51,465 bases of DNA from a virus. Its lineage: Duplodnaviria; Caudoviricetes. The first letter of the stretch is position 1; every line of letters starts with the position of its first letter. This document shows positions 1 to 51,465 of this stretch, piece by piece. The translations under genes and the position numbers were made by a program. Below the pieces are notes generated by a model. It was not told the origin of the DNA. It did no database searches and was given only the letters and a program-made list of their open reading frames with translations. The DNA is taken from positions 1 to 51,465 of IMG/VR virus record IMGVR_UViG_3300025128_000057, one strand, 5' to 3'.

Positions 1-50
1 ATTAGGGTTTTCATTTGACTGGCTCCTTTGAGGTTTGCGTTTGCTGCCAT
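1..50 (-). CDS. 5' fragment of a gene running off the window (MAANANLKGASQ-MKTL...)
   Basis: Leaderless ATG at 50; in-frame SD (AAGGAG)-led ATG at 14; truncated by window edge. Confidence 0.55.
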   Translation of the reverse strand, partial: MAANANLKGASQMKTL

Positions 51-86
51 GACAATAACTATACACACTAGGGGAACCCCTAGCAA
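50..86 (-). promoter_or_regulatory. Family promoter P1 with palindromic operator
   Basis: Minus strand TTGCTA-17nt-TATAGT-7nt-ATGGCAGCAA; perfect palindrome CTAGGGGAACCCCTAG at 68-83. Confidence 0.85.
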
Positions 87-134
87 CCAAAAAGGGTAAA
101 AAGATGAGAATATTTGAGATTATTTTCTAGGCCC

Positions 135-178
135 AAAAAATGAAGATCCCGTGACCGGTCAGGGGCCACGGGACCTTC
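135..178 (-). terminator. Intrinsic terminator
   Basis: GAAGGTCCCGTGGCC-loop-GGTCACGGGATCTTC then ATTTTTT on minus strand; the right-end copy converts a G-U pair to A-U. Confidence 0.85.
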
Positions 179-180
179 TA

Positions 181-234
181 CTCGTTGGGAGTCAAGGAGG
201 GAGTTATGACAGCAACCGCCTCAACCAACGAGCG
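181..234 (-). ncRNA. Candidate 3'-UTR antisense RNA complementary to the shared early-mRNA leader
   Basis: Hairpin CTCGTTGG...CCAACGAG enclosing GCGGTTGCTGTCAT (anti-leader) and TCCCTCCTTGA (anti-SD); identical in both repeat copies. Confidence 0.6.
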
Positions 235-471
235 TTATGTTGTTCCCTGCACGATAGCAGGAACGTTCTCTTTCAGCCACTGGTCAGCGTGGCGCTGGAA
301 ACCTTCATCCATCATGTAACGCCAGATTGCTTCAGCGTCGTTACCGGCTCTCGTTAGCAGCGTTTCTACAAACTCATCGGGAAGCTGTAGTGAACCAAGC
401 CGGTTCACCAACGTAACTACCGCGGCTTGTTGACGCTTCGACAGATCAGTGATGCGATGAACTACCGTCAT
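235..471 (-). CDS. Hypothetical protein, 78 aa
   Basis: ORF conserved in second copy (50266-50502); 4-nt overlap with upstream gene. Confidence 0.8.
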   Translation of the reverse strand: MTVVHRITDLSKRQQAAVVTLVNRLGSLQLPDEFVETLLTRAGNDAEAIWRYMMDEGFQRHADQWLKENVPAIVQGTT

Positions 472-911
472 TCGATCACCAGCATTTCAAGCGTCGGCTC
501 AAACTCTTGGTCTGCTCTATCGCGTAGGCGTGGGTTCGTGAATCTGTCAACGAACTCGTCGCCGGTGCTGATTTCGCCGTTGTACTCAACCATCAGTTCA
601 TCAGGCATCTGCGTTCCGAACTTGCTGGTACGGGTAGTCCAGTAAACCTCTGGCGTTGGGTACTCAGGGTCAATTTCACTAATCCCGATTCCGAAGCCTT
701 TGTTGGTGCGGTCATCGCCTTGTAGTTCGTTGAAGATCATGCGAGTCAAATAATCTGGGTTGTTCCAAGCGTCACGGTTATCGTCAAGTGCTTTCGCAAG
801 TACCTGACAGATTTGGCTTCCTCTCCAATGTGTGTAAAAGAAGATGCTTGCTTCTCCGCTGGCTTCTCCGACTAGCGGTTGATTGATTTGGATGTTTCCT
901 CTATCACCCAT
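468..911 (-). CDS. Hypothetical phage protein (MGDRG...YTHWRG)
   Basis: ATG 911 with SD GAAAGGA; ORF-track extension to 986 runs through the tRNA-like element; conserved in second copy. Confidence 0.8.
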   Translation of the reverse strand: MGDRGNIQINQPLVGEASGEASIFFYTHWRGSQICQVLAKALDDNRDAWNNPDYLTRMIFNELQGDDRTNKGFGIGISEIDPEYPTPEVYWTTRTSKFGTQMPDELMVEYNGEISTGDEFVDRFTNPRLRDRADQEFEPTLEMLVIE

Positions 912-940
912 GACAGTCCTTTCTGTTGTTGTTGCTGTCG

Positions 941-1008
941 TACTGCGGAGAGGAATTGAACCTCTCACTTCCCCGAACGTCGGCAATTCGGAGGTAGCCT
1001 TTCGCAGC
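941..1008 (-). ncRNA. D-armless tRNA-like element 1
   Basis: Acceptor GCTGCGA/CCGCAGT (6 of 7 paired), T-arm AGAGG-TTCAATT-CCTCT, one central hairpin, discriminator A, then CGACAGCAAC; no CCA. Confidence 0.7.
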
Positions 1009-1023
1009 CCTACCCTGTGTGAA

Positions 1024-1344
1024 TCAGGCGTTCACCCCGTTCATCCGCTTCAAGAAGAATTCAGCGTCTAAAGATTGGACCACTAGGTCGTAGATGTCGT
1101 GCATTTCGCCAAACAACATTTTGGAAGCCAGAGCCTGAGCTTCAGCCATAGTCTTGAAGCTCTTGGAGTGGTCTAGTTCAGGGCAACTCACGACGAAAGA
1201 ATGTTCCTTCTCGCCAGTGCCTGCGGTAACGGTTACGCCTTCAATGGTGACGTTGAAATCAAGATTTGTGCGATTTCCTGTGAAACTTAGTTTGCGTGTT
1301 TCTGTATTCATTTCGGTTCCTCCTACGGTTCCGGTTGCTGTCAT
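1024..1344 (-). CDS. Hypothetical protein (starts 1344 leaderless, 1311 SD-led)
   Basis: First gene after P2; SD AGGAGG before 1311; conserved in second copy. Confidence 0.8.
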   Translation of the reverse strand: MTATGTVGGTEMNTETRKLSFTGNRTNLDFNVTIEGVTVTAGTGEKEHSFVVSCPELDHSKSFKTMAEAQALASKMLFGEMHDIYDLVVQSLDAEFFLKRMNGVNA

Positions 1345-1380
1345 GTAATGAACTATACACACTAGGGCGGCCCCTAGCAA
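1344..1380 (-). promoter_or_regulatory. Family promoter P2
   Basis: TTGCTA-17-TATAGT-7-ATGACAGCAACCG; operator CTAGGGCGGCCCCTAG 1362-1377. Confidence 0.85.
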
Positions 1381-1393
1381 CCTCATCCAGTAA

Positions 1394-1882
1394 TTAATTC
1401 GAAGATTTCCATTTACGGTCACCAGCACCCCCACGCAAACCAGCCTCCAACAAATATTGGCGCGTCTCCTCAGACTGAAATTCGGTTTCCTCAATATGAA
1501 TGTTCGTCGCCACCATGAAACCCTGCCTCGTTAGCACGTTCACGATCCCAGTGTTTCCCGGAGTTGTCTCACGCTCAACAGCGCGCCCCACCTCATCGTA
1601 AAGGTAAACCGCTAACCCTTGATCACGTAACTCACCTAAACGAGTACCAGCTTGGTTCGGTGAAATAGTGCGGCCAGCACCGTTCACAATATGTTCGCTC
1701 AACTCGTAAGCGGTCATGCCACGTTTCGGTTCACGAGCTAACGCTTTTATTGCTTGCGCTTTCTGGCCACCTGACTTGACGTTCCTCGCTGCGACTTGAC
1801 TCGTCTCCGGGTGATCGGCTCCGACTTTGCCGCCGACTTGGTCAGGGTTGAAGCCGAACAGGTTGTATTGCTCATTCGACAT
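1394..1882 (-). CDS. Putative winged-helix DNA-binding protein
   Basis: HPETSQVAA motif followed by MTAYELS...TRLGELRDQGL HTH-like segment. Confidence 0.55.
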   Translation of the reverse strand: MSNEQYNLFGFNPDQVGGKVGADHPETSQVAARNVKSGGQKAQAIKALAREPKRGMTAYELSEHIVNGAGRTISPNQAGTRLGELRDQGLAVYLYDEVGRAVERETTPGNTGIVNVLTRQGFMVATNIHIEETEFQSEETRQYLLEAGLRGGAGDRKWKSSN

Positions 1883-1991
1883 TTTGTTCTCGTTTCGCTT
1901 CGGCTGTTCGTAGCGCTCGTTCGACGTAAGGCATCAGGCGTTCCGGGTCAGCTTTCGCCCATTCCCTGAGGTGCTGTTCGTAGTCGTTCAT
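1872..1991 (-). CDS. Small hypothetical protein, 39 aa (MNDYEQHLREWAKADPERL...)
   Basis: Read manually; fills the gap, ATGA overlap with 1988-2281. Confidence 0.6.
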   Translation of the reverse strand: MNDYEQHLREWAKADPERLMPYVERALRTAEAKREQNVE

Positions 1992-2281
1992 ATCGCTGTG
2001 TCCCAGTCCGGGTGGTCTCCCGCGTGTTCGTAACCGGTTGCTTCTTCAAATCTTCTTTGACCGAGCGAGATTGCTAGGTCTTTGAAGGGGAGATTTGATT
2101 CTTGGTAAATCTCTTCAAAGGATTTTCCGGCGTCATGTAACTGCTGCACTTTTCGGACTATGGCTCTTATAGCGTTGCCATCTTTTCTTTCCAACGCCTC
2201 AGCCGTTTCCTTAATTTCCTTCCGTAGTGAGACAAGTTCAGGGATTGTCATGTCTGCGTGATTGCGCTCAAAGTCCACCAT
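1988..2281 (-). CDS. Hypothetical protein
   Basis: Operon packing, 1-nt overlap with upstream gene. Confidence 0.7.
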   Translation of the reverse strand: MVDFERNHADMTIPELVSLRKEIKETAEALERKDGNAIRAIVRKVQQLHDAGKSFEEIYQESNLPFKDLAISLGQRRFEEATGYEHAGDHPDWDTAI

Positions 2282-2499
2282 TATGCCTCCAGTTCCCAGC
2301 CGTAAGACTTCAAGCCGGTGCGATACTTAGCTACGGTTCCGGTGATGTCTCGTTTAGTGAGTGTCGTGTTCCATGCTTTGTTTTGAATCCGATTCCAGTG
2401 GTCTGTTTCGGTTCGTGATTTAGCTATTTCGTGTTCACGAAGTTTCCACTTATCTTCTAGGCGTTCGTGAATTTCGATAGGTACGAATGCTCTCATCAT
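2281..2499 (-). CDS. Hypothetical protein ending LKSYGWELEA
   Basis: Operon packing. Confidence 0.7.
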   Translation of the reverse strand: MMRAFVPIEIHERLEDKWKLREHEIAKSRTETDHWNRIQNKAWNTTLTKRDITGTVAKYRTGLKSYGWELEA

Positions 2500-2648
2500 G
2501 CTTCTAGCTCCCAGTCGTATGGCTTCAACTCTGTGCCGTGATGGACACGATCTAAAGCCAACTGCATTTCGGCTGCTCGCTGTTCGTCGCGCCGGTCCAG
2601 ATAAACACCGGCACCCATAAGACCGAAGATGAAGATTGCTTCAATCAT
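2496..2648 (-). CDS. Small membrane protein, 50 aa (MIEAIFIFGLMGAGVYL...LKPYDWELEA)
   Basis: Read manually; SD AGGAGG; ATGA overlap; hydrophobic N-terminus. Confidence 0.7.
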   Translation of the reverse strand: MIEAIFIFGLMGAGVYLDRRDEQRAAEMQLALDRVHHGTELKPYDWELEA

Positions 2649-2685
2649 TTTGACAGTTCCTCCTGTTTGGTTTTTGTTGCTGTCG

Positions 2686-2737
2686 TGCCCCGGTGCGGAA
2701 TCGAACCGCCGCTCGGGTAGGAGCGCCAGTCCGGGGC
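2686..2737 (-). ncRNA. D-armless tRNA-like element 2 (52 nt)
   Basis: Perfect acceptor GCCCCGG/CCGGGGC, T-arm GCGG-TTCGATT-CCGC, small hairpin GCTC/GAGC, discriminator A, then CGACAGCAAC. Confidence 0.72.
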
Positions 2738-2744
2738 GAGCCGC

Positions 2745-2996
2745 CTAGAGGCATCCCTTAAGAAGGCTGACGGTCCTTTCCACTTGGATCAGCGTTTCTC
2801 GCGCTTCGTCGGTGCGAGCCGATAAGCGAGTTCGTGCAAAGCGAGTCAGTCCATCACCGGTTTCGGCAAGTTCGGCTTCTAACCTAGCGAGACGAGCTTC
2901 AAGGAACCCCATCATCATGGCAGCGCTGATTTCGTGATCTTCGATTGTCTTGTTCATGACATTTCCTCCTGAGTTTGAGTTTCGGTTTGCTGTCAT
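2745..2996 (-). CDS. Hypothetical coiled-coil protein (starts 2996 leaderless, 2957 SD-led)
   Basis: First gene after P3; SD AGGAGG. Confidence 0.75.
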   Translation of the reverse strand: MTANRNSNSGGNVMNKTIEDHEISAAMMMGFLEARLARLEAELAETGDGLTRFARTRLSARTDEARETLIQVERTVSLLKGCL

Positions 2997-3031
2997 ATAA
3001 GAACTATACATACTAGGGGAACCCCTTGCAA
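2996..3031 (-). promoter_or_regulatory. Family promoter P3
   Basis: TTGCAA-17-TATAGT-6-ATGACAGCAA; operator CTAGGGGAACCCCTTG 3013-3028. Confidence 0.85.
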
Positions 3032-3061
3032 CCTAATTCAGTAAAAAGATTGAAAAAGTTT

Positions 3062-3433
3062 TCAGTCCCAAGAATTACTCAACAACCCAAGCGACTTCGC
3101 CACATCAGGATGACCATGAATCCAGTCATGGCAGCGACGGCAAACAGCGATCGTGTTATCTACGTCAAGGATTGAACCACCGGCTGACCTTTGTAACGGC
3201 TCATGGATATCAGTAGCGCGACCTTGGCAACGATCAGTTCGCCGTTTCTCCTGAGCGTATTCTGCGCCGAAATTGTTTTGGTGCCACATATAGATCGGTT
3301 CACCAGCTTCGCAGAAGGGTCGGACAGCGAGTTGCTCACGAACAAGATTTCGGCGTTGCCCTTGAATCTTCTGCCGTTTCTTCGACACTGACCTGAGTGG
3401 TGTCTTGCGTTGAATCGGGCCGCTACGTTTCAT
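3062..3433 (-). CDS. HNH endonuclease-like protein
   Basis: DIHE...RSAGG...NTIAVCRRCHDWIH; MKRSGPIQRKTPLR N-terminus. Confidence 0.75.
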   Translation of the reverse strand: MKRSGPIQRKTPLRSVSKKRQKIQGQRRNLVREQLAVRPFCEAGEPIYMWHQNNFGAEYAQEKRRTDRCQGRATDIHEPLQRSAGGSILDVDNTIAVCRRCHDWIHGHPDVAKSLGLLSNSWD

Positions 3434-7750: not shown

Positions 7751-8499
7751 TGTGAATCCTCCGATTCGGTTGCTGTCACTTCATTATTACCGGTAGGGGC
7801 TACCCTGTCAAGTAAAGATGAGATAATAATTTCAAGTTCATCCTCGCTGACCGCTGAACTACCGTTCTCTCCCCACGCTTCAAGGGCTAATTCCTTATCC
7901 CCATTGGCCGCTTCAAGAACAAGGTGTTTCGCTTTCGCCGCCGAAACCAACGTGATCACATCACCTTCCGGCCCTACGTCTGCCCCTAGTTCCTCAGGCA
8001 CGTAACCAGCGCCAAGAACCACATCGCTAAACAGATTCCGGCACAGTTTGGACACAGCACGCCACGTCAACATTGATTCCTGATACTGCTTCCAATTCTT
8101 TTTGCCTGCGAGGCCAGCAGCTTCAGCATCATCCAACGTAAACGTCGCAGTGTGCTCATCACCAGTATCGCAGCGTTTACCAATCGCAGTAGCTGAACCA
8201 GCGCCATTCTCAATGGTGACTGAATGGCCAGCCTGACGCACAAGCCCGAGCATCGCTTCCGGCTTCATGGATGCGCTGCCTTCAATCACATGGAAGTTAC
8301 GCATAGATGCCATCACGTCCCAACCGAAAGCCCGTCCGGCTAGCCCAGCGGCGACGATGTCAGCTTCACGGTTACGGTAAGCAGCAGGAACGATCCGTGA
8401 ACTGGCGAGTACCGTAGCCTGCCGCATCACTAGATCGAAGTAGCGGCCATCATCGGCACGCGCTACCTGTCGTTCTTCAATGATTTCAATGTCGGTCAT
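7747..8499 (-). CDS. RecT-like single-strand annealing protein
   Basis: VPAAYR, FHVIEG, FTLDDAEAAGL, WKQYQESML..RA, Y.PEEL. Confidence 0.7.
   Translation of the reverse strand: MTDIEIIEERQVARADDGRYFDLVMRQATVLASSRIVPAAYRNREADIVAAGLAGRAFGWDVMASMRNFHVIEGSASMKPEAMLGLVRQAGHSVTIENGAGSATAIGKRCDTGDEHTATFTLDDAEAAGLAGKKNWKQYQESMLTWRAVSKLCRNLFSDVVLGAGYVPEELGADVGPEGDVITLVSAAKAKHLVLEAANGDKELALEAWGENGSSAVSEDELEIIISSLLDRVAPTGNNEVTATESEDSQ
7779..7811 (-). promoter_or_regulatory. Family promoter P4 inside the 3' end of the RecT-like gene
   Basis: TTGACA-17-AATAAT, operator GTAGGGGCTACCCTGT 7793-7808, then GTGACAGCAACCG. Confidence 0.65.
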
Positions 8500-9178: not shown

Positions 9179-9654
9179 CCCCTATCCCAGCAGTCGCCCA
9201 CCTCCATCCAGTTGTCCACGGCGTACCCATCCGGAAGCGCAGCGACCCACTCTGAGCGAGTCATGTTGGTCACGTTGGTTGACAGCCCGATACGGTCTGC
9301 GAAGTGAAGGGTGTTAAGGCGCATCTTCCGATACACCAACTCGCCTTCGTGTTCTTCCCAGACGCCGACGCGATTGTCGTCACCGGTTGACAGGATGTGA
9401 TAGCGCTCCGCGACTTCGTACATATTGTCGGAAGTGATTTTGTTGATACCAAGGTTCGGCATCATCTGGATAACCGAAGTGGTTATCCGATGCTGGTTCC
9501 GTTGGTAATTGGTTGAGCCTTCAGTGAACACCTCCCCGTTTTGGCTTGGGTCGATGTACGTTTCAGCCAGAAGGCTGTCAGCGTTTCGACAATTTGCGAT
9601 GTTCCATGTGAGTGGCATATTTGAATCTCCGATTCTTGTTGCGATTACTGCCAT
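9175..9654 (-). CDS. Hypothetical protein (starts 9654 leaderless, 9618 SD-led)
   Basis: First gene after P5. Confidence 0.75.
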   Translation of the reverse strand: MAVIATRIGDSNMPLTWNIANCRNADSLLAETYIDPSQNGEVFTEGSTNYQRNQHRITTSVIQMMPNLGINKITSDNMYEVAERYHILSTGDDNRVGVWEEHEGELVYRKMRLNTLHFADRIGLSTNVTNMTRSEWVAALPDGYAVDNWMEVGDCWDRG

Positions 9655-9749: not shown

Positions 9750-9787
9750 TTGCTAGTGGGTCCCCTATCATATATAGTTCAGGTATG
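9750..9787 (+). promoter_or_regulatory. Rightward divergent promoter P6
   Basis: TTGCTA-17-TATAGT-6-ATGGCAGCAATC; operator CTAGTGGGTCCCCTAT 9753-9768. Confidence 0.85.
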
Positions 9788-10009
9788 GCAGCAATCACAA
9801 ACTCAAAAGGAGCTACCATGACCCACTCATTCGACCAGACCGACAGCTACGTCTTCGACGATCGGCATGTCGCCCAAGGCGGACTCGAAGGTTGGACCGC
9901 AACCTGCGGAGCCTGCGGCTACCAGATGGGCACCTCACTGAGCGACAAGCACTTCATTGTCAAAGACATGAACGATCACGTTCGCTACATGATTAAAGAG
10001 GGCCGATAA
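9785..10009 (+). CDS. Hypothetical protein (starts 9785 leaderless, 9818 SD-led)
   Basis: First gene after P6; CGAC motif. Confidence 0.75.
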   Translation: MAAITNSKGATMTHSFDQTDSYVFDDRHVAQGGLEGWTATCGACGYQMGTSLSDKHFIVKDMNDHVRYMIKEGR

Positions 10010-19168: not shown

Positions 19169-19237
19169 TTCTTCTTGTTAAGAAGGTCGGCTATTTGCGG
19201 TAGAGGGAAAAGATTCTCAAATAATCCGTAAATAAGG

Positions 19238-19276
19238 TTGCTAGGGTGTCCCCTAGTAGGTATAGTTATTCTCATG
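19238..19276 (+). promoter_or_regulatory. Family promoter P7
   Basis: TTGCTA-17-TATAGT-7-ATGGCAGCAA; operator CTAGGGTGTCCCCTAG 19241-19256. Confidence 0.85.
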
Positions 19277-19522
19277 GCAGCAAACGAAACCTCAAATCAA
19301 GGAGCCAGCCAAATGAACACCTCAGTAACCACAACCCTAACGCTAGTAGAAGATCTAAGAGAAGGAGACGTTTGCAGATTCATCGGCACCGACGCGACCG
19401 TCGCAACCCTTACAAGAAGCAGCGACAGGTTGACCGTAACCTTCGAGTCCGGTGTTGAGACAAGTTTCTGGTTCCAAGAAGGTGTCTTTAACTTGTGTGA
19501 AGTTGTGGAGGCTGCTGTTTGA
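19274..19522 (+). CDS. Cassette gene, hypothetical (starts 19274 leaderless, 19313 SD-led)
   Basis: Own promoter and terminator. Confidence 0.75.
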   Translation: MAANETSNQGASQMNTSVTTTLTLVEDLREGDVCRFIGTDATVATLTRSSDRLTVTFESGVETSFWFQEGVFNLCEVVEAAV

Positions 19523-22210: not shown

Positions 22211-22249
22211 TTGCAAGGGGTGTCCCTACACCGTATAGTTATTACTATG
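22211..22249 (+). promoter_or_regulatory. Family promoter P8
   Basis: TTGCAA-17-TATAGT-7-ATGACAGCAACC; operator CAAGGGGTGTCCCTAC 22214-22229. Confidence 0.85.
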
Positions 22250-22549
22250 ACAGCAACCACAAAAATCACCAAATCCGGTCCGGGTAACTACATCCTCACC
22301 AGCGGCGAAGAAACCGAAAAGACATTCGGTGACGAGACGTACATGCAATCTGCTTACGAGTTGCAAATCACTAAGATGGACATTCATCGCTGCTTCGCTG
22401 ATTGGCGCATCGGAACTTGGGCAGTCGAAATCGTAAGGAACAACGGCTACTACGCACCCGAACTAACCGACTTTGAATTCAAGACCTATCGCGAAGCCAA
22501 AGCATACGCCCAACAGCTACTCGGCTGGATAACAGAAGGGGCGGTCTGA
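22247..22549 (+). CDS. Cassette gene, leaderless hypothetical
   Basis: ATG 7 nt after -10; FKTYREAKAYA motif. Confidence 0.75.
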   Translation: MTATTKITKSGPGNYILTSGEETEKTFGDETYMQSAYELQITKMDIHRCFADWRIGTWAVEIVRNNGYYAPELTDFEFKTYREAKAYAQQLLGWITEGAV

Positions 22550-28098: not shown

Positions 28099-28442
28099 GA
28101 GAAGTAAAGGCTATAGGTGCGGCCATTGTCGGGACGGTTATCGGTGACGCTGACAAGCTCATCAGTCATGTAGACATCAATGTCTGGCCGATTGTTCTTG
28201 AATGCTTGTTCGGCGATCAACTCGAAGATTTTGTTGGCGATGCGCTTGATGTTGGTAGCGGCTCGCTTCGCATCATTGATGCTGTCACCGTTTGCGTAGT
28301 TACATGCACCGTCAGCGTAGTAGTAGGTGCCTAAGCAGCCGCAAGCGCAGCCACGTTCACCTGAGTAGGCCTGAACTGTGTTGTTGATCATGGTTTCTTT
28401 GAGATTCATGACATTCCCTTCCTGAGTTTGAGTTGCTGTCAT
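28095..28442 (-). CDS. Cassette gene (starts 28442 leaderless, 28409 SD-led), GCACGC motif
   Basis: First gene after P9; YSGERGCACGCLGTY. Confidence 0.75.
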   Translation of the reverse strand: MTATQTQEGNVMNLKETMINNTVQAYSGERGCACGCLGTYYYADGACNYANGDSINDAKRAATNIKRIANKIFELIAEQAFKNNRPDIDVYMTDELVSVTDNRPDNGRTYSLYFS

Positions 28443-31614: not shown

Positions 31615-32565
31615 ATGCCACAACCAACAGTAAGTGACGTACACGTAGACGCGATCCTGACAAATATGTCAGTCGCCTACATGCAGGAAAGCTTCGCATT
31701 CGTAGCTTCCCGTGCGTTCCCACAGGTAAACGTCCAGAAGCAGTCAGACAAGTACTTCACGTACTCGCAAGCTGACTTTTTCCGTGATCAGGTTCAACTA
31801 CGTGCAGACGGAACACAATCCGCCGGTACCGGTTACAGCCTGTCCACTGAGACATACTCTGCTGAGGTTTACGCACTACACAAAGACATCGGTGACCAAG
31901 TACGCGCCAACTCGGACGCACCACTTGACCCAGACATGGACGCCACTCGCTTCCTGACCCAGCAAATGCTGATTCGTCAAGAAGTTGAATGGGCATCAGC
32001 CGCTTTCACAACCGGCATCTGGGGCAGCGATGTAACACCGGGCACCCTTTGGAGTGCCGCCAACTCCACACCGATTGCGGATGTCGAAACTGGCAAGAAC
32101 ACTGTGCTCACAAACACTGGTTACGTGCCAAACACGTTAATCATGAGCTACAAGGTGTTCTCTGCTTTGATGGACAACGCAGACATCGTGGACCGTATCA
32201 AATACACCTCACAAGAATCAGTAACCGAGGATCTCCTCGCACGCTTGTTCAACGTGGATCGTGTCTTGATTATGGCTGGCACCTACAACACCGCTGCTGA
32301 AGGAGCTACCGCTTCTTACAGCCAGATCGGTGACAGGGATGCCCTCCTTTGCTACACGCCTGCCAATCCCGGCCTCATGGTCCCCTCTGCGGGGTACACA
32401 ATGGTTTGGAGTGGTTTGAGCGCTGGCTTGGGCACCTCATCTGCGATTAGTCGCTTCCGTATGGAAGCCGAAAAGGCTGACCGCATTGAAATTGAAGCGG
32501 CTTGGGATACCAAGATTGTTTCTTCAGCGCTTGGGTACTTCCTGAGCAACTGTGTAGCAGCGTAA
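31615..32565 (+). CDS. Major capsid protein
   Basis: 316 aa; HVDAILTNMSVAY...FP.V.V; position; downstream hairpin. Confidence 0.85.
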   Translation: MPQPTVSDVHVDAILTNMSVAYMQESFAFVASRAFPQVNVQKQSDKYFTYSQADFFRDQVQLRADGTQSAGTGYSLSTETYSAEVYALHKDIGDQVRANSDAPLDPDMDATRFLTQQMLIRQEVEWASAAFTTGIWGSDVTPGTLWSAANSTPIADVETGKNTVLTNTGYVPNTLIMSYKVFSALMDNADIVDRIKYTSQESVTEDLLARLFNVDRVLIMAGTYNTAAEGATASYSQIGDRDALLCYTPANPGLMVPSAGYTMVWSGLSAGLGTSSAISRFRMEAEKADRIEIEAAWDTKIVSSALGYFLSNCVAA

Positions 32566-35699: not shown

Positions 35700-35788
35700 G
35701 TGATTTCTCCTATTGTTCGGGTCACCCACAGAATCAAGTCGAACCAGATGCTCTGGTGAACTTTGACTGAGGTGATGATTGCTGCCAT
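35696..35788 (-). CDS. Leaderless 30-aa peptide (MAAIITSVKVHQSIWFDLILWVTRTIGEIT)
   Basis: ATG 6 nt after -10 of P10; ATGA overlap with next gene. Confidence 0.55.
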   Translation of the reverse strand: MAAIITSVKVHQSIWFDLILWVTRTIGEIT

Positions 35789-37944: not shown

Positions 37945-40900
37945 TGGCTGACCAAGTTGTTAGTTCAGTATCCGTTGATTTCAATGCGAAAGATGGTGTC
38001 ACTGGCACCATCAATCGGATGCGTGGGCAGTTCAAGACCCTACGCAAAGATATAGACGGCACGTCAGCTAAGTTTAAGAAACTTGGCGATTCGGCAATGG
38101 CTGTTGGCAAACAAATGTCAATGAGGATGACGTTGCCGATAGTTGCTGCTGGCGGCGCATCAATCAAAATGGCTTCAGATTTTGAGTCATCAATGACGAA
38201 AATCCAAAGTTTGGTTGGTCGCTCAGAGCAAGAAGTTAAAGGCTTAACTGAGAGCGTATTGAAGCTGTCGGGTGAAACGGCAAGAGCGCCACAAGAACTG
38301 GCTGACGCTATGTTCTTCATTACCTCAGCAGGTATCGAAGGCGCTGACGCCGCAAGCGTGTTGGAAGCCTCTGCGAAAGCAGCAGCGGTTGGGTTAGGTG
38401 AAGCGGCAACCATCGCTGATCTTGCTACGTCCGCCATGAATGCTTATGGCAAAGAGAACCTCGGAGCGAGCGACGCTACTGACGTAATGGTCGCAGCGGT
38501 GCGTGAAGGTAAACTCGAAGCCTCAGAACTTGCTGGATCAATGGGGCGTGTGCTCCCAGTCGCGTCAGCGATGGGTGTCAGCTTCAACGAAGTCGGTGCA
38601 GCATTCGCAGCGCTATCACGTACTGGTACCAACGCAGCAGAAGCAGCCACACAAGTTCGTGGCATCATGACTTCTTTATTGAAACCGACTCAGCAAGCTG
38701 AAGAAGCGCTGGCAGAGATGGGCCTCTCATCTGAAGGGTTACGTAAACAGATCGCAGATGAAGGGTTGCTTTCTACTCTCCAGACGTTGGCGACGGAGTT
38801 TGATGGTAACGCTGCTGCTTCGGCATCAGTGTTCGGTAACGTGCGCGCCCTTTCAGGTGTTATGGACTTGATGGGTAAAAACGTGGCTGGTACTGAAGCC
38901 ATTTTTGAGAGCATGAACAACACGCTCGGTGCCACTGATAAAGCGTTTGCTGTTACGGCAGAAACCACTGAATTCAAGATGAATCAAGCTATATCCGATT
39001 TTAAGGTGGCGATGATTGCGGTAGGGCAGGAGATCATCCCTGTCGTGTTACCAATGATTCAGAAGTTCGCAGAATTTGTTACCAAGGTTGTTAAAGCGTT
39101 TAGTGATTTACCCGGACCAGTAAAAACAGCAGTCGTAGTATTCGGTGGGTTGTTGGCGGTTGCTGGGCCGCTTCTCATTGCTGCTGGTGCAATGGTTAAA
39201 GCCTTTCTCGCCATTAAGGTTGCAATGGCTGGGATGCTTGGCCCCATCGGGTTAGGGATTGCCGCTGTCGGGTTACTTACGGTTGCAATCGTCAAACTTA
39301 CGGGTGCGGATAAAGAAGCCGAGACACGACAGCAAGCGTTAAATGAGCAACTGAAAGCTGCTGGCGATCCTTTACAAATGGTTCAGGAGCGTACGGCTGC
39401 GCTTACCGAAGAATACGAAAGGCTTGCTGGTACAACCCAAACGGTTGATGAGGGTATTGAAAAGCTCAACGGATCGAATGTTCTGTTGGGTGAGTTGATT
39501 GCTCGGGATGTTGCCCCTGAGTTTGAGAATCTTGATATCCGTATGCACGATGTCAACCGCACTGTTCGCACAGGTACGGACGAATATCAGCGCCTAGCTG
39601 GTCGTGCAAAAGTGCTTAGGGGCGACAACGCTCGTTTGGCTGACGTGCTCGAAGATGTTGACGAGTTCACATTAAAAGTAACGGGTTCGATGGCGAAGAA
39701 GCTGCGTGCTGGGGAACTGGACTCTGAACAAGTCGCTGAAATGCTTATTGCGTTAGACGAAACGGCTGACGCTTACGACGACAACAACGAGAAACTTGAC
39801 GAGCAAGCGAAGAAGTTCCTTACCAATAAAGACAACGCTGCCAAATATGCTCGGATGGTTGGTGTTGAGGTATTCGACTCGCTAGTTGATACGGCAAAGC
39901 TAACTGGTGAATGGAACCATGCGCAAGACGAGTTAAACAGAACTATCGCCAATGCCACTACTGACTACGCAATTATGGCGGATGGCATTAACGCTCTTGC
40001 GAGGGAAACCGAAGTAACAACCGATGCAGTAGCGGCGCAAGCAAAACAAGTAGAGAACGTCCGCTTGACATGGGAAGAACTACGGGATGCTGCCGAAGGG
40101 CGAGCGCTGTTCTTCACTTTGGCGCTTGACACCGCTGGCCTGTATGAGCAGTTGAACGAAGCGATGAACGCCATTATTGATGTCGGTTCGCTTATGCCGG
40201 GTGGTGACTCAGCGGCACTTGATACACAGCTTGCAATCTCTCGCCGTATTTCGGCAAAGCTCGTGGACACGAAAGCCGCTGATCGTAGAACAATGTCGTC
40301 GGCAGCTAAGGCTGCTACAGCGGAGTTTGAAAACTTTATTAAAAACACAACAAGTCTTGGTAGCTCTGTACTAACAGATTCGTTTGCTGAAGCGATTGTG
40401 GGATCACCAGAGCAAATCGGTAAAGCATTCGACAAGCTCTTTGATGATGCGTTCGATACGGGAATGACGCAAATCCCACAACTGCGCTCCACATTCGAGA
40501 AAGCCATTGAACAAAAAGGTGGCTTAATAAATCTCGCGAATATTCGCACCAAGCTAACCGAGGATCTTGTTACTGCTGAAGATCGGTTAGCACAAGCAAT
40601 CCAGAATCAAGCATCGGCGCAAAGCCGTGTCAATTCGTTAATGGATCAACGCTCACAGACAGCACAAAAAACTGCGTCAGCGTTTGGGTTTACGTTCGGG
40701 GAAACCCCCGGCGCTAATGCGAGCGGACGAGCCAAACAACTGCTCGCTCAATACACAGCGTTTCAGCTTAACCTTACCAAGCTCCGTGACCGTGGTTTCC
40801 CTGTAGACATAATCAGTCAAGTCATCGGGCTTGGTGCTTTTGAAGGCAACCAGACAGCACAAGCGCTCTTGGCGATGGGCGACACTGATTTCGGTGAGTT

Positions 40901-49596: not shown

Positions 49597-50091
49597 TTAG
49601 TAGTCGTAGGTGCTTCCACGAAGGTCAGCGCGAACGAGGTTCTCGCTGTACAGGCTGTCCTTGACCTTGATGCCGTTGTCGATGAACGCATCTCGAAGCC
49701 GGTATGAACCACTAGCGTGGTCGAACTTGTTCAGTTCAACGTGCATGCCAAGGTTTTCCAAGACGAAGATCGGTGCGTCGTATTCGTGCGCTGTTTTCTC
49801 AGTCTGGTATCCGTTGCGATTTACGGTTTCAACAGCGAAGCTCGTGCTGCTATCGCCGAGGGCGTAGTTGAATTCAAAGTAGTGGCAGCTAACGGCGCTG
49901 CAAGCGGTCCATGCTGGGCGACCGGCTCCGGGGAGAACGGTCAAGTTTCCGGTTCCTCCGCACTGGTCGTTCTGGACGATCAGGTGAGCTAGTTCCGCTG
50001 GGTCTACTTTGCGAGCGGTCTTGCTGGCGGTGCTGTAGTTAGGGATAGTGTTCATTTCGTTGGCTCCTTTGAGGTTTGGGGTTGCTGCCAT
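49597..50091 (-). CDS. Hypothetical protein (starts 50091 leaderless, 50055 SD-led)
   Basis: First gene after P11. Confidence 0.75.
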   Translation of the reverse strand: MAATPNLKGANEMNTIPNYSTASKTARKVDPAELAHLIVQNDQCGGTGNLTVLPGAGRPAWTACSAVSCHYFEFNYALGDSSTSFAVETVNRNGYQTEKTAHEYDAPIFVLENLGMHVELNKFDHASGSYRLRDAFIDNGIKVKDSLYSENLVRADLRGSTYDY

Positions 50092-50127
50092 GACAATAAC
50101 TATACACACTAGGGGGACCCCTTGCAA
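50091..50127 (-). promoter_or_regulatory. Family promoter P11 (homolog of P1)
   Basis: TTGCAA-17-TATAGT-7-ATGGCAGCAACC; operator 50109-50124. Confidence 0.85.
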
Positions 50128-50165
50128 CCAAAACAGGAGAATATTTGAGATTAATTTCTAAGCCC

Positions 50166-50265
50166 AAAAAATGAAGATCCCGTGACCGGTCAGGGGCCAC
50201 GGGATCTTCTACTCGTTGGGAGTCAAGGAGGGAGTTATGACAGCAACCGCCTCAACCAACGAGCG
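50166..50265 (-). ncRNA. Second copy of antisense hairpin plus terminator
   Basis: One substitution relative to 135-234. Confidence 0.6.
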
Positions 50266-50502
50266 TTATGTTGTTTCCTGCACGATAGCAGGAACGTTCT
50301 CCTTCAGCCACTCATCAGCGTGGCGTGCGAAACCCGCGTCCATCATGTAACGCCAGATCGCTTCCGCATCATTACCTGATCTCCGTAGCAGCGTTTCCAC
50401 AAACTCATCAGGAAGCTGTAACGAGGCAAGCCGGTTCACTAACGTGACTACCGCAGCTTGCTGACGCTTCGGCAGGTCAGTGATGCGATGAATCACCGTC
50501 AC
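50266..50502 (-). CDS. Hypothetical protein, variant of 235-471
   Basis: 69/78 aa identical. Confidence 0.8.
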   Translation of the reverse strand: MTVIHRITDLPKRQQAAVVTLVNRLASLQLPDEFVETLLRRSGNDAEAIWRYMMDAGFARHADEWLKENVPAIVQETT

Positions 50503-50942
50503 TCGATCACCAGCATTTCAAGCGTCGGCTCAAATTCATGGCCTGCCCTCGTGCGTTCCGCTGTTCGAAGTTTAAGATCAATGAACTCGTCGCCGGTCAT
50601 CAGGTCGCCGTTGTATTGGACCATCAGTTCATCAGCCATCTGCGTACCGAACTTGCTGGTACGGGTAGTCCAGTAAACCTCTGGCGTTGGGTGCTCAGGG
50701 TCAATCTCGCAGGTGCCGATTCCGAAGCCTTTGTTGCTGCGATCGTCGCCTTGAAGTTCGTTGAAGATCATCCGTGACAAGTAGTCCGGGTTGTTCCAAG
50801 CGTCACGGTTATCGTCAAGCGCTTTCGCTAAGACTTGGCAAATTTCGCTGCCGCGCCAGTGCGTATAGAAGTAGATATCTGATTCGCCGCTGACTTGTCC
50901 GACTAGCGGTTGATTGATTTGGATGTTTCCTCTATCACCCAT
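50499..50942 (-). CDS. Hypothetical protein, variant of 468-911
   Basis: Same length and motifs; divergent near C-terminus. Confidence 0.8.
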   Translation of the reverse strand: MGDRGNIQINQPLVGQVSGESDIYFYTHWRGSEICQVLAKALDDNRDAWNNPDYLSRMIFNELQGDDRSNKGFGIGTCEIDPEHPTPEVYWTTRTSKFGTQMADELMVQYNGDLMTGDEFIDLKLRTAERTRAGHEFEPTLEMLVIE

Positions 50943-50971
50943 GACAGTCCTTTCTGTTGTTGTTGCTGTCG

Positions 50972-51031
50972 TACTGCGGAGAGGAATTGAACCTCTCACT
51001 TCCCCGAACTTCGGAGGTAGCCTTTCGCAGC
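50972..51031 (-). ncRNA. tRNA-like element 1, variant lacking 8 nt of the central loop
   Basis: Acceptor and T-arm identical to 941-1008. Confidence 0.7.
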
Positions 51032-51046
51032 CCTACCCTGTGTGAA

Positions 51047-51367
51047 TCAGGCGTTCACCTCGTTCATGCGATCCAAGAAGCATTGAGCTTCTTCAGAGTG
51101 GACCACTAGGTTGTAGATGTCGTGCATTTCGCCAAACAACATTTTGGTAGCCAGAGCCTGAGCTTCAGCCATAGTCTTGAAGCTCTTGGAATGGCCTAGT
51201 TCAGGGCAACTCACGACGAAAGAATATTCTTTCTCGCCAGTGTCTGCGGTAACGGTTACGCCTTCAATGATGACGTTCAAATCAATGTTTGTCCGATTGC
51301 CTGTGAAACTTAGTTTGCGTGTTTCTGTATTCATTTCGGTTCCTCCTGAGGTTCCGGTTGCTGTCAT
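51047..51367 (-). CDS. Hypothetical protein, variant of 1024-1344
   Basis: Starts 51367/51334. Confidence 0.8.
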   Translation of the reverse strand: MTATGTSGGTEMNTETRKLSFTGNRTNIDLNVIIEGVTVTADTGEKEYSFVVSCPELGHSKSFKTMAEAQALATKMLFGEMHDIYNLVVHSEEAQCFLDRMNEVNA

Positions 51368-51403
51368 GTAATGAACTATACACACTAGGGCGGCCCCTAG
51401 CAA
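51367..51403 (-). promoter_or_regulatory. Family promoter P12 (copy of P2)
   Basis: Identical to 1344-1380. Confidence 0.85.
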
Positions 51404-51465
51404 CCTCATCCAGTAATTAATTCGAAGATTTCCATTTACGGTCACCAGCACCCCCACGCAAACCA

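What the first reader, a model, noticed from the sequence alone, without database searches (positions are those of the whole stretch)
135..234. Candidate master antisense RNA that reads the 5' end of every family-promoter transcript
Seen: on the minus (transcribed) strand, between the stop of 235-471 and the terminator, is the hairpin CTCGTTGG-TTGAGGCGGTTGCTGTCATAACTCCCTCCTTGACTC-CCAACGAG. GCGGUUGCUGUCAU is the reverse complement of ATGACAGCAACCGC, the leader shared by promoters P1-P12. Every leader deviation in positions 1-10 is A>G or C>T, so still pairs by G-U wobble; the most divergent leader (P5, ATGGCAGTAATCGC) pairs over 14 nt with three wobbles. The adjacent UCCCUCCUUGA is anti-SD (P7 leader has TCAAGGAG). 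The 100-nt element differs by one base between the two repeat copies (a G-U to A-U change in the terminator stem) while the flanking CDSs carry many changes. Inference: a 3'-UTR-derived trans-acting RNA that masks both the leaderless AUG and the downstream SD of early mRNAs, giving negative feedback or early shut-off. The two pairings are not colinear, so simultaneous binding would loop the target's free 5' end. I know of no description of such a phage-wide leader/anti-leader system.
Basis: partly seen in the sequence, partly recalled or inferred. Interest (0 to 1): 0.92.

Follow-up and report, generated by a model that had tools for sequence, protein, structure and literature searches.

The report
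Phage anti-leader RNA hairpin
A small, strongly conserved RNA hairpin at the end of one early operon of a marine phage shows in its loop the mirror image of the short tag that begins nearly all of the phage's messenger RNAs, so it probably acts as one antisense RNA that can touch all of them at once.

Summary
On the minus strand, 181-232 forms an 8-bp hairpin with a 36-nt loop. It lies between the stop of gene 235-471 and an intrinsic terminator (178-142). The first 20 loop bases are the reverse complement of the leader that starts 12 promoter transcripts.

- **Conservation:** the element recurs after the same 78-aa gene in every related contig with downstream sequence. There are 15 distinct versions. 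Nine outer-stem sequences differ yet stay paired, with compensatory changes in 7 of 8 pairs. The loop core is invariant.
- **Co-variation:** each of three full genomes' anti-leader fits its own leaders best.
- **Substitution pattern:** leader changes in the core are only those that keep G-U wobble (14 of 14).
- **Processed ends:** the same leader also follows tRNA-like structures inside operons, so it seems to mark mRNA 5' ends.
- **Rejected:** the plus-strand ORF is not conserved.

Best reading (confidence 0.5): a 3'-UTR antisense RNA whose loop pairs with free mRNA 5' ends, as in IS10 RNA-OUT/RNA-IN, but in trans and on many targets.

Not supported: use of the anti-SD part, and an actinobacterial host. 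Whether it represses or protects is unknown.

No RNA data cover the element. Nested-fold energetics favour pairing in only one of three genomes.

The parts
181..232 (-). Anti-leader hairpin: 8-bp outer stem (232-225 with 188-181) around a 36-nt loop.
   Evidence: A covariance model finds it in 17 loci. The outer stem shows compensatory change in 7 of 8 pairs, and 91.6% of cells are paired.
205..224 (-). Anti-leader proper: the first 20 loop bases. They are G/U-rich and are the reverse complement of the leader (core 209-216) and of a second leader block.
   Evidence: The core is invariant in 15 of 15 rows of A2 and A4.
189..204 (-). Pyrimidine-rich, anti-SD-like 3' half of the loop. It can pair with the loop's first six bases (inner helix).
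   Evidence: inner helix 83% paired; 27 G-U against 2 A-C cells. It is not used in any best duplex with a leader.
135..178 (-). Intrinsic terminator (stem-loop 178-142) and its T run.
   Evidence: Covaries in relatives: 11 of 14 pairs show compensatory change.
235..471 (-). 78-aa gene of unknown function that precedes the element in all relatives.
   Evidence: No Pfam or PHROG family.
50212..50263 (-). Second copy of the hairpin, inside the diverged end repeat.
50173..50209 (-). Terminator of the second copy.
1331..1344 (-). Leader of the promoter that drives the element's own operon (13 of 14 identical to the anti-leader complement).
37..50 (-). Leader of the next promoter downstream.
2983..2996 (-). 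Promoter-linked leader.
7766..7779 (-). Promoter-linked leader (GTG form).
9641..9654 (-). Promoter-linked leader, the most diverged (three wobble changes).
9785..9798 (+). Promoter-linked leader.
19274..19287 (+). Promoter-linked leader.
22247..22260 (+). Promoter-linked leader with no SD (leaderless gene start).
28429..28442 (-). Promoter-linked leader.
35775..35788 (-). Promoter-linked leader with no SD.
942..1008 (-). tRNA-like structure inside the operon. Its 3' end lies 3 nt from a leader core (938-931).
   Evidence: ARAGORN calls no tRNA.
2687..2737 (-). Second tRNA-like structure, followed by a leader core (2683-2676).

Best explanation
The 3' untranslated end of the small early operon (promoter at about 1380, genes 1344-1024, 911-468 and 471-235, minus strand) carries a closed hairpin followed by an intrinsic terminator. 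The hairpin loop presents a G/U-rich 'anti-leader'.

This RNA may act as the mRNA tail or as a cut-off hairpin-plus-terminator fragment. Either way it pairs in trans with the free 5' ends of the phage's own mRNAs. All of those begin with the same short leader, whether the 5' end is made by transcription initiation at the family promoters or by cutting behind tRNA-like structures.

Pairing would start between the apical loop bases and the extreme 5' end of the target. It would then wind onward toward the SD. That is the geometry known from IS10 RNA-OUT/RNA-IN, in which a free end is needed to wind into a closed loop. The result would be a genome-wide change in translation or stability of leader-bearing mRNAs.

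Shown: the structure, its conservation, the complementarity, and its co-variation with the leaders.

Inferred: that the two RNAs meet, that the RNA acts in trans, and the sign of the effect. I lean slightly to repression, because the duplex reaches the edge of the SD and, in this clade, covers a 5' AUG.
For: 1. **Conserved structure.**
   - 16 of 16 metagenome loci with downstream sequence have hairpin, anti-leader and terminator after the 78-aa gene (2 further loci end too early). So do 3 further viral records.
   - The covariance model gives 17 hits with E at or below 1.1e-13.
   - Outer stem: 7 of 8 pairs show changes on both sides and 91.6% of cells are paired. 0 of 500 shuffles reach the covariation score, and slid controls give 38-53% paired. 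There are nine different 5'-arm sequences.
2. **Strand.** G-U cells outnumber A-C cells 27:2 in the inner helix and 15:3 in the terminator. The fold therefore belongs to the transcribed strand.
3. **Complementarity.** There are 24 leader-like sites against 5.46 expected. 11 of the 15 leaders are among the 40 best sites of 25,720 windows for the 20-nt probe.
4. **Co-variation.** In a 3x3 table of anti-leader against leader sets (15, 10 and 12 leaders), the own-genome value is the lowest in every row and column. GUC goes with G-leaders and GUU with A-leaders; AUG against UCG before the core changes on both sides.
5. **Substitution pattern.**
   - In core positions 1-7 there are 14 wobble-keeping changes and 0 others.
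   - In the flanks the counts are 18 wobble-type against 131 others.
   - The anti-leader core is 7 of 8 G or U.
6. **Leader at mRNA ends.** It sits 6-9 nt after the -10 box. It also sits 3 nt after the 3' end of tRNA-like structures at 11 distinct junctions.
7. **Accessibility.** Apical loop bases are predicted unpaired, at probability 0.8-0.9.
8. **Local conservation.** 1 difference in 131-244 against 33 in 245-471 between the two copies. A strain contig in run X2 shows no listed difference between 175 and 244 (that table is cut, with 55 further differences not shown).
Against: - No RNA evidence: the one RNA run with this phage has two 151-nt contigs elsewhere and none on the element.
- With nested folds only, the net gain of duplex over hairpin is -7.0 kcal/mol in the window (shuffled leaders -0.5). 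It is only -0.6 in both G001 and G002, no better than shuffled (-0.9, -1.3). That program cannot model loop-to-end kissing.
- The G/U-rich probe is promiscuous: 27 of the top 40 sites are neither leaders nor self, and they have equal energies.
- Leaders were picked by their motif, so their fit to the core is partly by construction; only the flanks and cross-genome values are informative.
- The lineages are few (about 9 stem types, 2 leader types), so co-variation rests on few events. All wobble-keeping changes are also transitions, which are commoner anyway.
- In L078 the anti-leader base next to the core would face an A-A mismatch.
- No internal promoter for a separate small RNA was found in 235-471.
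- The pyrimidine half of the loop is conserved but unexplained by this model.
Confidence: 0.5

Rival explanations
1. Cis fold-back. The anti-leader pairs only with the leader of its own roughly 1.2-kb operon transcript. This joins the 5' and 3' ends to autoregulate or stabilise that one mRNA. The leader on other transcripts would serve another purpose, such as a translation enhancer.
For: The operon that ends in the element always starts with a leader-bearing promoter and holds a tRNA-like-plus-leader junction. In the second copy, the own-operon leader is the best partner of all, at -30.0 kcal/mol. Pairing within one molecule is kinetically favoured (inference).
Against: Own-operon leaders are not the best partners in copy 1 (-24.6; three others are better), in G001 (-24.2 against -27.7) or in G002 (-23.1 against -24.0). 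The anti-leader matches the consensus of all leaders and carries wobble-capable bases at the positions where the leaders vary.
Confidence: 0.15
2. A structural 3'-end element, either a stability or processing hairpin or a protein-binding site. Its loop looks like an anti-leader only because it arose by inverted duplication of a leader; pairing plays no part.
For: The anti-leader complement equals the own-operon leader of copy 2 apart from a 3-nt gap, as an inverted duplicate would. Net pairing energy is near zero in two genomes. The conserved pyrimidine run and inner helix have no role in the pairing model.
Against: A mere relic would not keep an invariant loop core across 15 versions while the stem sequence turns over. 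Nor would it follow the leaders' changes.
Confidence: 0.12
3. DNA-level site. The asymmetric word is an operator for a phage or host DNA-binding protein at +1 of the promoters, with the 3' copy as a further, reversed site (stoperator-like).
For: The motif lies at the promoter start region with fixed orientation. Co-variation of all copies with a protein's specificity would look the same as what is seen. Transitions are often tolerated by proteins.
Against: A covarying stem and strand-specific G-U pairs are not explained by duplex DNA. The motif also follows tRNA-like structures inside operons, without any promoter. The 3' copy is always between a stop codon and a terminator.
Confidence: 0.08
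4. Decoy or mimic. The leader normally pairs with a host RNA (for instance a ribosomal RNA segment) or binds a host factor, and the hairpin copies that partner in order to titrate it or compete with it.
For: The leader is C/A-rich and lies upstream of the SD, like known enhancers (recalled). The loop also holds an anti-SD-like run resembling a 16S 3' end (the resemblance is recalled).
Against: The host is unknown and no host sequence was compared. The loop varies among close phages in step with the leaders, which a fixed host partner would not require.
Confidence: 0.06
5. The plus strand encodes a small protein (206-319) with its own SD and ATG.
For: On the plus strand, an SD-like run lies 5 nt before the ATG at 206, followed by an open frame of 38 codons.
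Against: The start is ATG only in part of the family; it is TTG in L004/L070/L072/L074 and TCG in G001. The frame stops after 8 codons in L003 and after 2 in G002. No plus-strand family promoter lies upstream: the only plus-strand match there is a weak 9-of-12 consensus site at 114-141. The frame is antisense to a conserved gene.
Confidence: 0.02

Closest known systems
IS10/Tn10 RNA-OUT and RNA-IN antisense pair
   Same: A stem-loop antisense RNA that is complementary to the 5' end and translation start region of its target and blocks ribosome binding (PMC5006887, passages read). Pairing starts between the target's 5' end and the antisense loop (Kittle et al. 1989, recalled, not seen here).
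   Different: RNA-OUT is made from the opposite strand of its single target and is perfectly complementary over 35 nt. Here the RNA is encoded elsewhere, sits in a 3' UTR, matches 10-20 nt, and faces about 15 targets.
3'-UTR-derived trans-acting small RNAs of bacteria, and small RNAs acting on phage mRNAs
   Same: A seed upstream of the mRNA's own terminator hairpin, on the sense strand, acting on other mRNAs. A host 3'UTR small RNA acting on a phage mRNA is in print (PMC13250501, search listing and start of abstract only).
   Different: Known cases target a few unrelated mRNAs through evolved seeds. Here the targets share one built-in tag at their 5' ends, and both partners belong to the phage.
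Start-associated sequences (SAS/ESAS) of Cluster K mycobacteriophages
   Same: A 13-bp oriented word before many early genes, often with a promoter carrying an inverted repeat. [quoted passage not shown] In Adephagia I find that lone reversed copy in the apical loop of a strong sense-strand hairpin in a non-coding gap.
   Different: SAS includes the SD and lies 3-9 bp from the start codon, not at the mRNA 5' end, and its sequence is unrelated. In Ekdilam the SAS is kept (16 copies) but the hairpin loop has drifted, so the parallel is partial.
c4 antisense RNA of phages P1 and P7
   Same: A phage antisense RNA cut out of the same transcript that it controls, acting on more than one complementary site (review PMC12197685, passages; its RNase P processing is recalled).
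   Different: c4 lies upstream of its targets within one operon and controls immunity. It does not address a genome-wide leader.
Stoperators of Cluster A mycobacteriophages
   Same: Many copies of an asymmetric 13-bp word whose orientation follows transcription (named in PMC3203893, passage; details recalled).
   Different: Stoperators are duplex-DNA sites for the repressor. Here there are a covarying RNA stem and strand-specific G-U pairs, and the odd copy is reversed.

Membership tests
Trans-acting / 3'-UTR-derived base-pairing small RNA | Lies on the sense strand between a stop codon and the mRNA's intrinsic terminator. | tested here: met
Trans-acting / 3'-UTR-derived base-pairing small RNA | Conserved seed complementary to its target mRNAs. 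| tested here: met
Trans-acting / 3'-UTR-derived base-pairing small RNA | A stable separate RNA species, from an internal promoter or from processing. | not testable with these tools
   No promoter-like site in 235-471 on the minus strand. The RNA run gives contigs only, none on the element.
Trans-acting / 3'-UTR-derived base-pairing small RNA | Changes expression of targets when supplied in trans. | not testable with these tools
   Needs reporters or infection experiments.
IS10 RNA-OUT type antisense control | A hairpin loop complementary to the 5' terminus of the target. | tested here: met
   Best duplexes start at target base 1 or 2 in 37 of 37 leaders. Apical bases are predicted unpaired.
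IS10 RNA-OUT type antisense control | Encoded on the opposite strand of its target (cis-antisense). | tested here: not met
   Targets lie at 15 other places in the window.
IS10 RNA-OUT type antisense control | The duplex covers the ribosome binding site. | tested here: inconclusive
   Predicted duplexes end at or just before the SD, and the pyrimidine run is not used.
Duplex-DNA operator / stoperator | A dispersed asymmetric word whose orientation follows transcription. | tested here: met
Duplex-DNA operator / stoperator | No need for a single-strand fold; bound by a repressor. | tested here: not met
   The stem covaries and G-U pairs are strand-specific. Protein binding is not testable here.
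Cluster K SAS | The 13-bp SAS word, including the SD, 3-9 bp before the start codon. | tested here: not met
   The leader is a different word that lies 15-30 nt before the start, separate from the SD.
Any Rfam family | A match at the gathering score. | tested here: not met
   0 matches in the window. At E up to 1 in 1-3100 there is one chance-level match elsewhere.
Small protein gene on the plus strand | Start codon and frame conserved in relatives. | tested here: not met

The most novel reading that the evidence does not exclude
This phage family may run a 'tagged messenger' system. Every mRNA, whether started at a promoter or cut free behind a tRNA-like punctuation mark, would begin with the same 8-14-nt tag. 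A single G/U-rich loop RNA encoded in one 3' UTR would read that tag through wobble-tolerant pairing with the free 5' end, giving the phage one knob for all its messages.

The lone reversed SAS copy in a hairpin loop of Cluster K1 mycobacteriophages hints that 'dispersed start tag plus one hairpin-displayed anti-tag' is a recurring phage design that has not been recognised.
Probability: 0.3. Interest if true: 0.88.

Novelty: new variant of a known kind. Interest (0 to 1): 0.72.

Why it matters
If the pairing is real, one small RNA would address the 5' ends of most phage transcripts. That would be post-transcriptional control at the scale of a whole genome, and no such mode came up in the searches made here.

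- It would explain why the phage keeps an identical tag at mRNA 5' ends, including ends apparently made by cutting behind tRNA-like structures. That in turn would be a bacterial-virus version of tRNA punctuation.
- It suggests a concrete, testable function for the long-unexplained SAS words of Cluster K mycobacteriophages.
- It offers a compact, orthogonal tag/anti-tag pair for synthetic control of many genes at once.

Tried and rejected
Searches that led nowhere:
- Nucleotide searches of the phage collection found no relative.
- TerL protein hits are all below 60% identity and span many hosts.
- Rfam gave nothing usable.
- ARAGORN found no tRNA in the window or in 12 related loci.
- The 16-letter loop word in viral contigs gave 59 stretches. 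Only 3 are true relatives; 56 are unrelated, mostly coding, contexts.
- Genome contigs holds no relative of the 78-aa protein.
- The 147-aa neighbour, used as a single query, found nothing.
- Whole metagenome records could not be searched (error), so leader sets for those phages rest on 3-kb flanks.

Analyses that did not help:
- The whole-loop genome scan with long windows was uninformative, because large internal loops inflate the energies. It was replaced.
- RNA runs: X1 holds two 151-nt contigs (908-1058 and 1196-1345) and none on the element. X2 is of unknown kind. Neither counts as evidence of expression of the element.
- The 78-aa protein has no Pfam or PHROG family and no Atlas hit. 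The AlphaFold model has mean pLDDT 63.5 and pTM 0.33, too weak for a fold search, so none was run.

Ideas dropped:
- An external guide sequence for RNase P: no conserved RCCA follows the pairing region in the rows.
- A read-through hairpin with the next promoter's leader: the next promoter follows the terminator in only some relatives.
- A 6S-like template RNA: not tested, and the hairpin is far smaller.
- A colinear SD-plus-ATG-plus-leader target elsewhere in the window: none found.

Supplementary files of the Cluster K papers (site lists for Adephagia, Angelica and CrimD) were not seen.

Full report
**What the window is.** The window is a complete IMG/VR virus record of 51,465 bp with 51% G+C. 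Its two ends carry a diverged direct repeat of about 1.4 kb, 85-92% identical. No cultured phage is close. Nucleotide searches found nothing. The large terminase is at most 57% identical to those of phages of Microcystis, Brevundimonas, a Rhodobacteraceae strain and others. Relatives come from IMG/VR and from metagenome contigs, and the one RNA run that holds part of it is labelled seawater.

**The element.** On the minus strand, gene 471-235 (78 aa) stops at 237-235.
- Two bases later an 8-bp stem (232-225 with 188-181) closes a 36-nt loop.
- After a short gap comes a 15-pair terminator (178-142) with a T run.
- The hairpin alone folds at -17.4 kcal/mol (z = -2.42; 5 of 200 shuffles as good). 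Together with the terminator it folds at -48.1 kcal/mol (z = -6.06; 0 of 200).
- The first 20 loop bases are the reverse complement of the word that follows the phage's promoters.

**The leaders.**
- The promoter family has a -35 box, a G/C palindrome in the spacer and a -10 box. The conserved word follows 6-7 nt later.
- I count 12 promoter-linked leaders in the window.
- The exact 14-mer occurs only in the element. At up to 3 mismatches there are 24 sites against 5.46 +/- 2.00 expected (0 of 100 shuffles).
- Three further leaders are not behind promoters. Each lies 3 nt behind the 3' end of a tRNA-like structure inside an operon.
- ARAGORN calls no tRNA in the window or in 12 related loci.
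- Across the family I found 11 distinct junctions of this kind, all with the same spacing.
- The leader therefore seems to mark mRNA 5' ends, both primary and processed. The cutting itself is inferred.

**Conservation.**
- The 78-aa protein finds 3 viral records and 18 metagenome loci. Two loci end before the downstream region.
- The other 16 all show stop codon, hairpin, anti-leader and terminator. Several are identical or come from the same record.
- A covariance model built on 15 sequences gives 17 hits with E at or below 1.1e-13 in 20 sources. The 16 weaker hits are terminators read on the other strand, or chance-level matches.
- For the pair counts I used 15 distinct rows. I left out L004, L080 and L064/L066/L088/L089, and never entered L076, L077, L079 or L081. 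These are duplicates, the same records, or genome pieces without the element.
- Outer stem: 8 pairs, 7 with changes on both sides, 91.6% of cells paired.
- Whole structure: 0 of 500 shuffles reach the covariation score, and slid partners give 38-53% paired.
- The alignment was fitted to the model and leans towards it. The nine different arm sequences can, however, be read directly.
- The loop core is invariant.
- G-U cells outnumber A-C cells 27:2 in the inner helix and 15:3 in the terminator. The fold belongs to the transcribed strand, not to the opposite strand or to duplex DNA.
- Between the window's two copies there is 1 difference in 131-244 and 33 in 245-471.

**Leader and anti-leader change together.** I fetched two further full records, G001 (49.5 kb) and G002 (44.4 kb).
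- G001 leaders have no ATG; most read TCG before the core, and so does the complement of G001's loop.
- G002 and its kin have A instead of G before the core, and their loops have U instead of C at the facing position.
- Predicted duplex energies for three loops against three leader sets (15, 10 and 12 leaders) are lowest on the diagonal in every row and column: -23.1, -23.2 and -21.8 kcal/mol, against -18.3 to -22.5 off the diagonal.
- Within the leader core (positions 1-7), all 14 deviations from the anti-leader complement are A>G or C>T, which keep a G-U pair. At position 8 there are 3 such changes and 5 others. In the flanks there are 18 and 131.
- Seven of the eight core bases of the anti-leader are G or U, the bases that tolerate such changes.

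Caveats on this co-variation:
- Leaders were chosen by motif.
- Paralogous promoters are not independent.
- Wobble-keeping changes are also transitions.
- The family has few deep lineages.
- L078 is a partial exception.

**How pairing would run.**
- In 37 of 37 leaders the best duplex uses only the first ~21 loop bases and starts at target base 1 or 2.
- In many leaders it continues, after a 3-5-nt bulge, onto a second leader block just before the SD.
- The pyrimidine, anti-SD-like half of the loop is never used. It may instead form the inner helix with the loop's first six bases (83% paired).
- The apical six to eight bases are predicted unpaired.
- A loop that must form more than a few pairs with a partner needs that partner's free end to wind in. 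This fits the leader's place at the very 5' end, and it is the logic described for IS10 RNA-OUT/RNA-IN. The complementarity and ribosome block are in PMC5006887 (passages). The loop-to-5'-end start is recalled from Kittle et al. 1989.

**Against.**
- Nested-fold cofolding gives a net gain of -7.0 kcal/mol in the window (shuffled leaders -0.5). It gives only -0.6 in both G001 and G002, no better than shuffled. The program cannot model pairing inside a closed loop.
- A genome-wide scan with the 20-nt probe puts 11 of 15 leaders among the top 40 of 25,720 windows. Twenty-seven other sites score as well. Specificity would therefore have to come from accessibility at 5' ends.
- No RNA data cover the element.

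**Rivals.**
- The plus-strand ORF is rejected. Its start is ATG, TTG or TCG in different relatives, and the frame stops after 2-8 codons in some.
- A duplex-DNA operator does not explain the covarying stem, the G-U bias, or the promoter-less copies behind tRNA-like structures.
- A fold-back within the own transcript, a structural element of leader origin, and a decoy of a host partner all remain possible.

**Literature.**
- Six full-text searches found no description of such a system.
- The nearest printed analogue is the SAS/ESAS system of Cluster K mycobacteriophages, whose role is still called unknown (PMC3203893 and PMC11373665, passages only).
- Following their remark on a single reversed site, I found by k-mer counting 15 forward SAS copies and 1 reversed copy in the right half of Adephagia. 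The reversed copy sits in the apical loop of a strong sense-strand hairpin in a non-coding gap.
- 142 phage records hold that region.
- Of 7 diverse ones, all 7 keep a hairpin, 4 keep the anti-SAS loop with changed but paired stems, and 3 have drifted loops. One of the three is Ekdilam, which still has 16 SAS copies. The parallel is suggestive, not established.

**Verdict.** The antisense relation is supported by comparative evidence, while the mechanism and its sign are inferred. I rate it a new variant of a known kind (a trans-acting antisense RNA), notable for addressing a genome-wide 5' tag.

Noticed in passing
window 942-1008 (-), 2687-2737 (-), second copy about 50973-51035 (-); G001 near 32036 (+); G002 near 39926 and 41588 (+); L067, L068, L076, L078, L081: tRNA-like structures (acceptor-like stem, T arm with the usual T loop, odd or missing other arms) sit between genes inside operons. 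They are not called as tRNAs. Each is followed after 3 nt by the leader core, then an SD and a start codon. There are 11 distinct junctions. This looks like tRNA-style punctuation that would give the downstream mRNA the same 5' tag as primary transcripts.
   Followed up: partly
window leaders at 47, 1341, 2993, 9651, 9788, 19277, 22250, 28439, 35785, 50088, 51364: In this clade the transcript would begin with ATG. In 11 of 11 ATG leaders that ATG is open in frame into the gene. In 9 of them it is in frame with a second, SD-led ATG 10-13 codons later, so two start sites could give two protein forms. The one GTG leader (7776) stops after 10 codons at a TGA overlapping the real ATG. G001 and G002 leaders have no ATG.
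   Followed up: partly
window 1-1434 and 50031-51465: The two ends are a direct repeat that is only 85-92% identical, and related full contigs are 44-50 kb. This looks like a circular or terminally redundant genome whose assembly closed on a second strain, rather than a true duplication. Run X2 shows several strain variants of this stretch.
   Followed up: partly
window promoters, e.g. 88-51 (-), 1382-1345 (-), 19236-19273 (+): All family promoters carry a G/C palindrome (TAGGGG..CCCCTA type) in the spacer between -35 and -10, a likely operator for an unknown dimeric regulator. The seven bases around the -35 box are the reverse complement of part of the leader, so each promoter is itself bracketed by a short inverted repeat.
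   Followed up: no
L005 3240-3254 (G001 record): In G001 the 78-aa gene's frame runs through the 5' arm of the hairpin and stops at a TGA formed by the first loop bases (read). In the window the stop is 2 nt before the stem. Terminating ribosomes would therefore open the hairpin, which could couple the anti-leader's availability to translation of the upstream gene.
   Followed up: no
L091 28648-28710 (Mycobacterium phage Adephagia, record about 58647-58709) and L092-L097: The single reversed SAS copy of Cluster K1 mycobacteriophages sits in the apical loop of a conserved sense-strand hairpin, in the gap between genes 92 and 93, next to another strong hairpin. 4 of 7 diverse phages keep the anti-SAS loop; 3 do not.
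   Followed up: partly
window 908-1058 and 1196-1345: A seawater metatranscriptome run holds two 151-nt contigs at 99% or more identity. One ends at 1345, one base from the predicted transcript start at 1344. It is a single low-depth contig, so this is a hint only.
   Followed up: no
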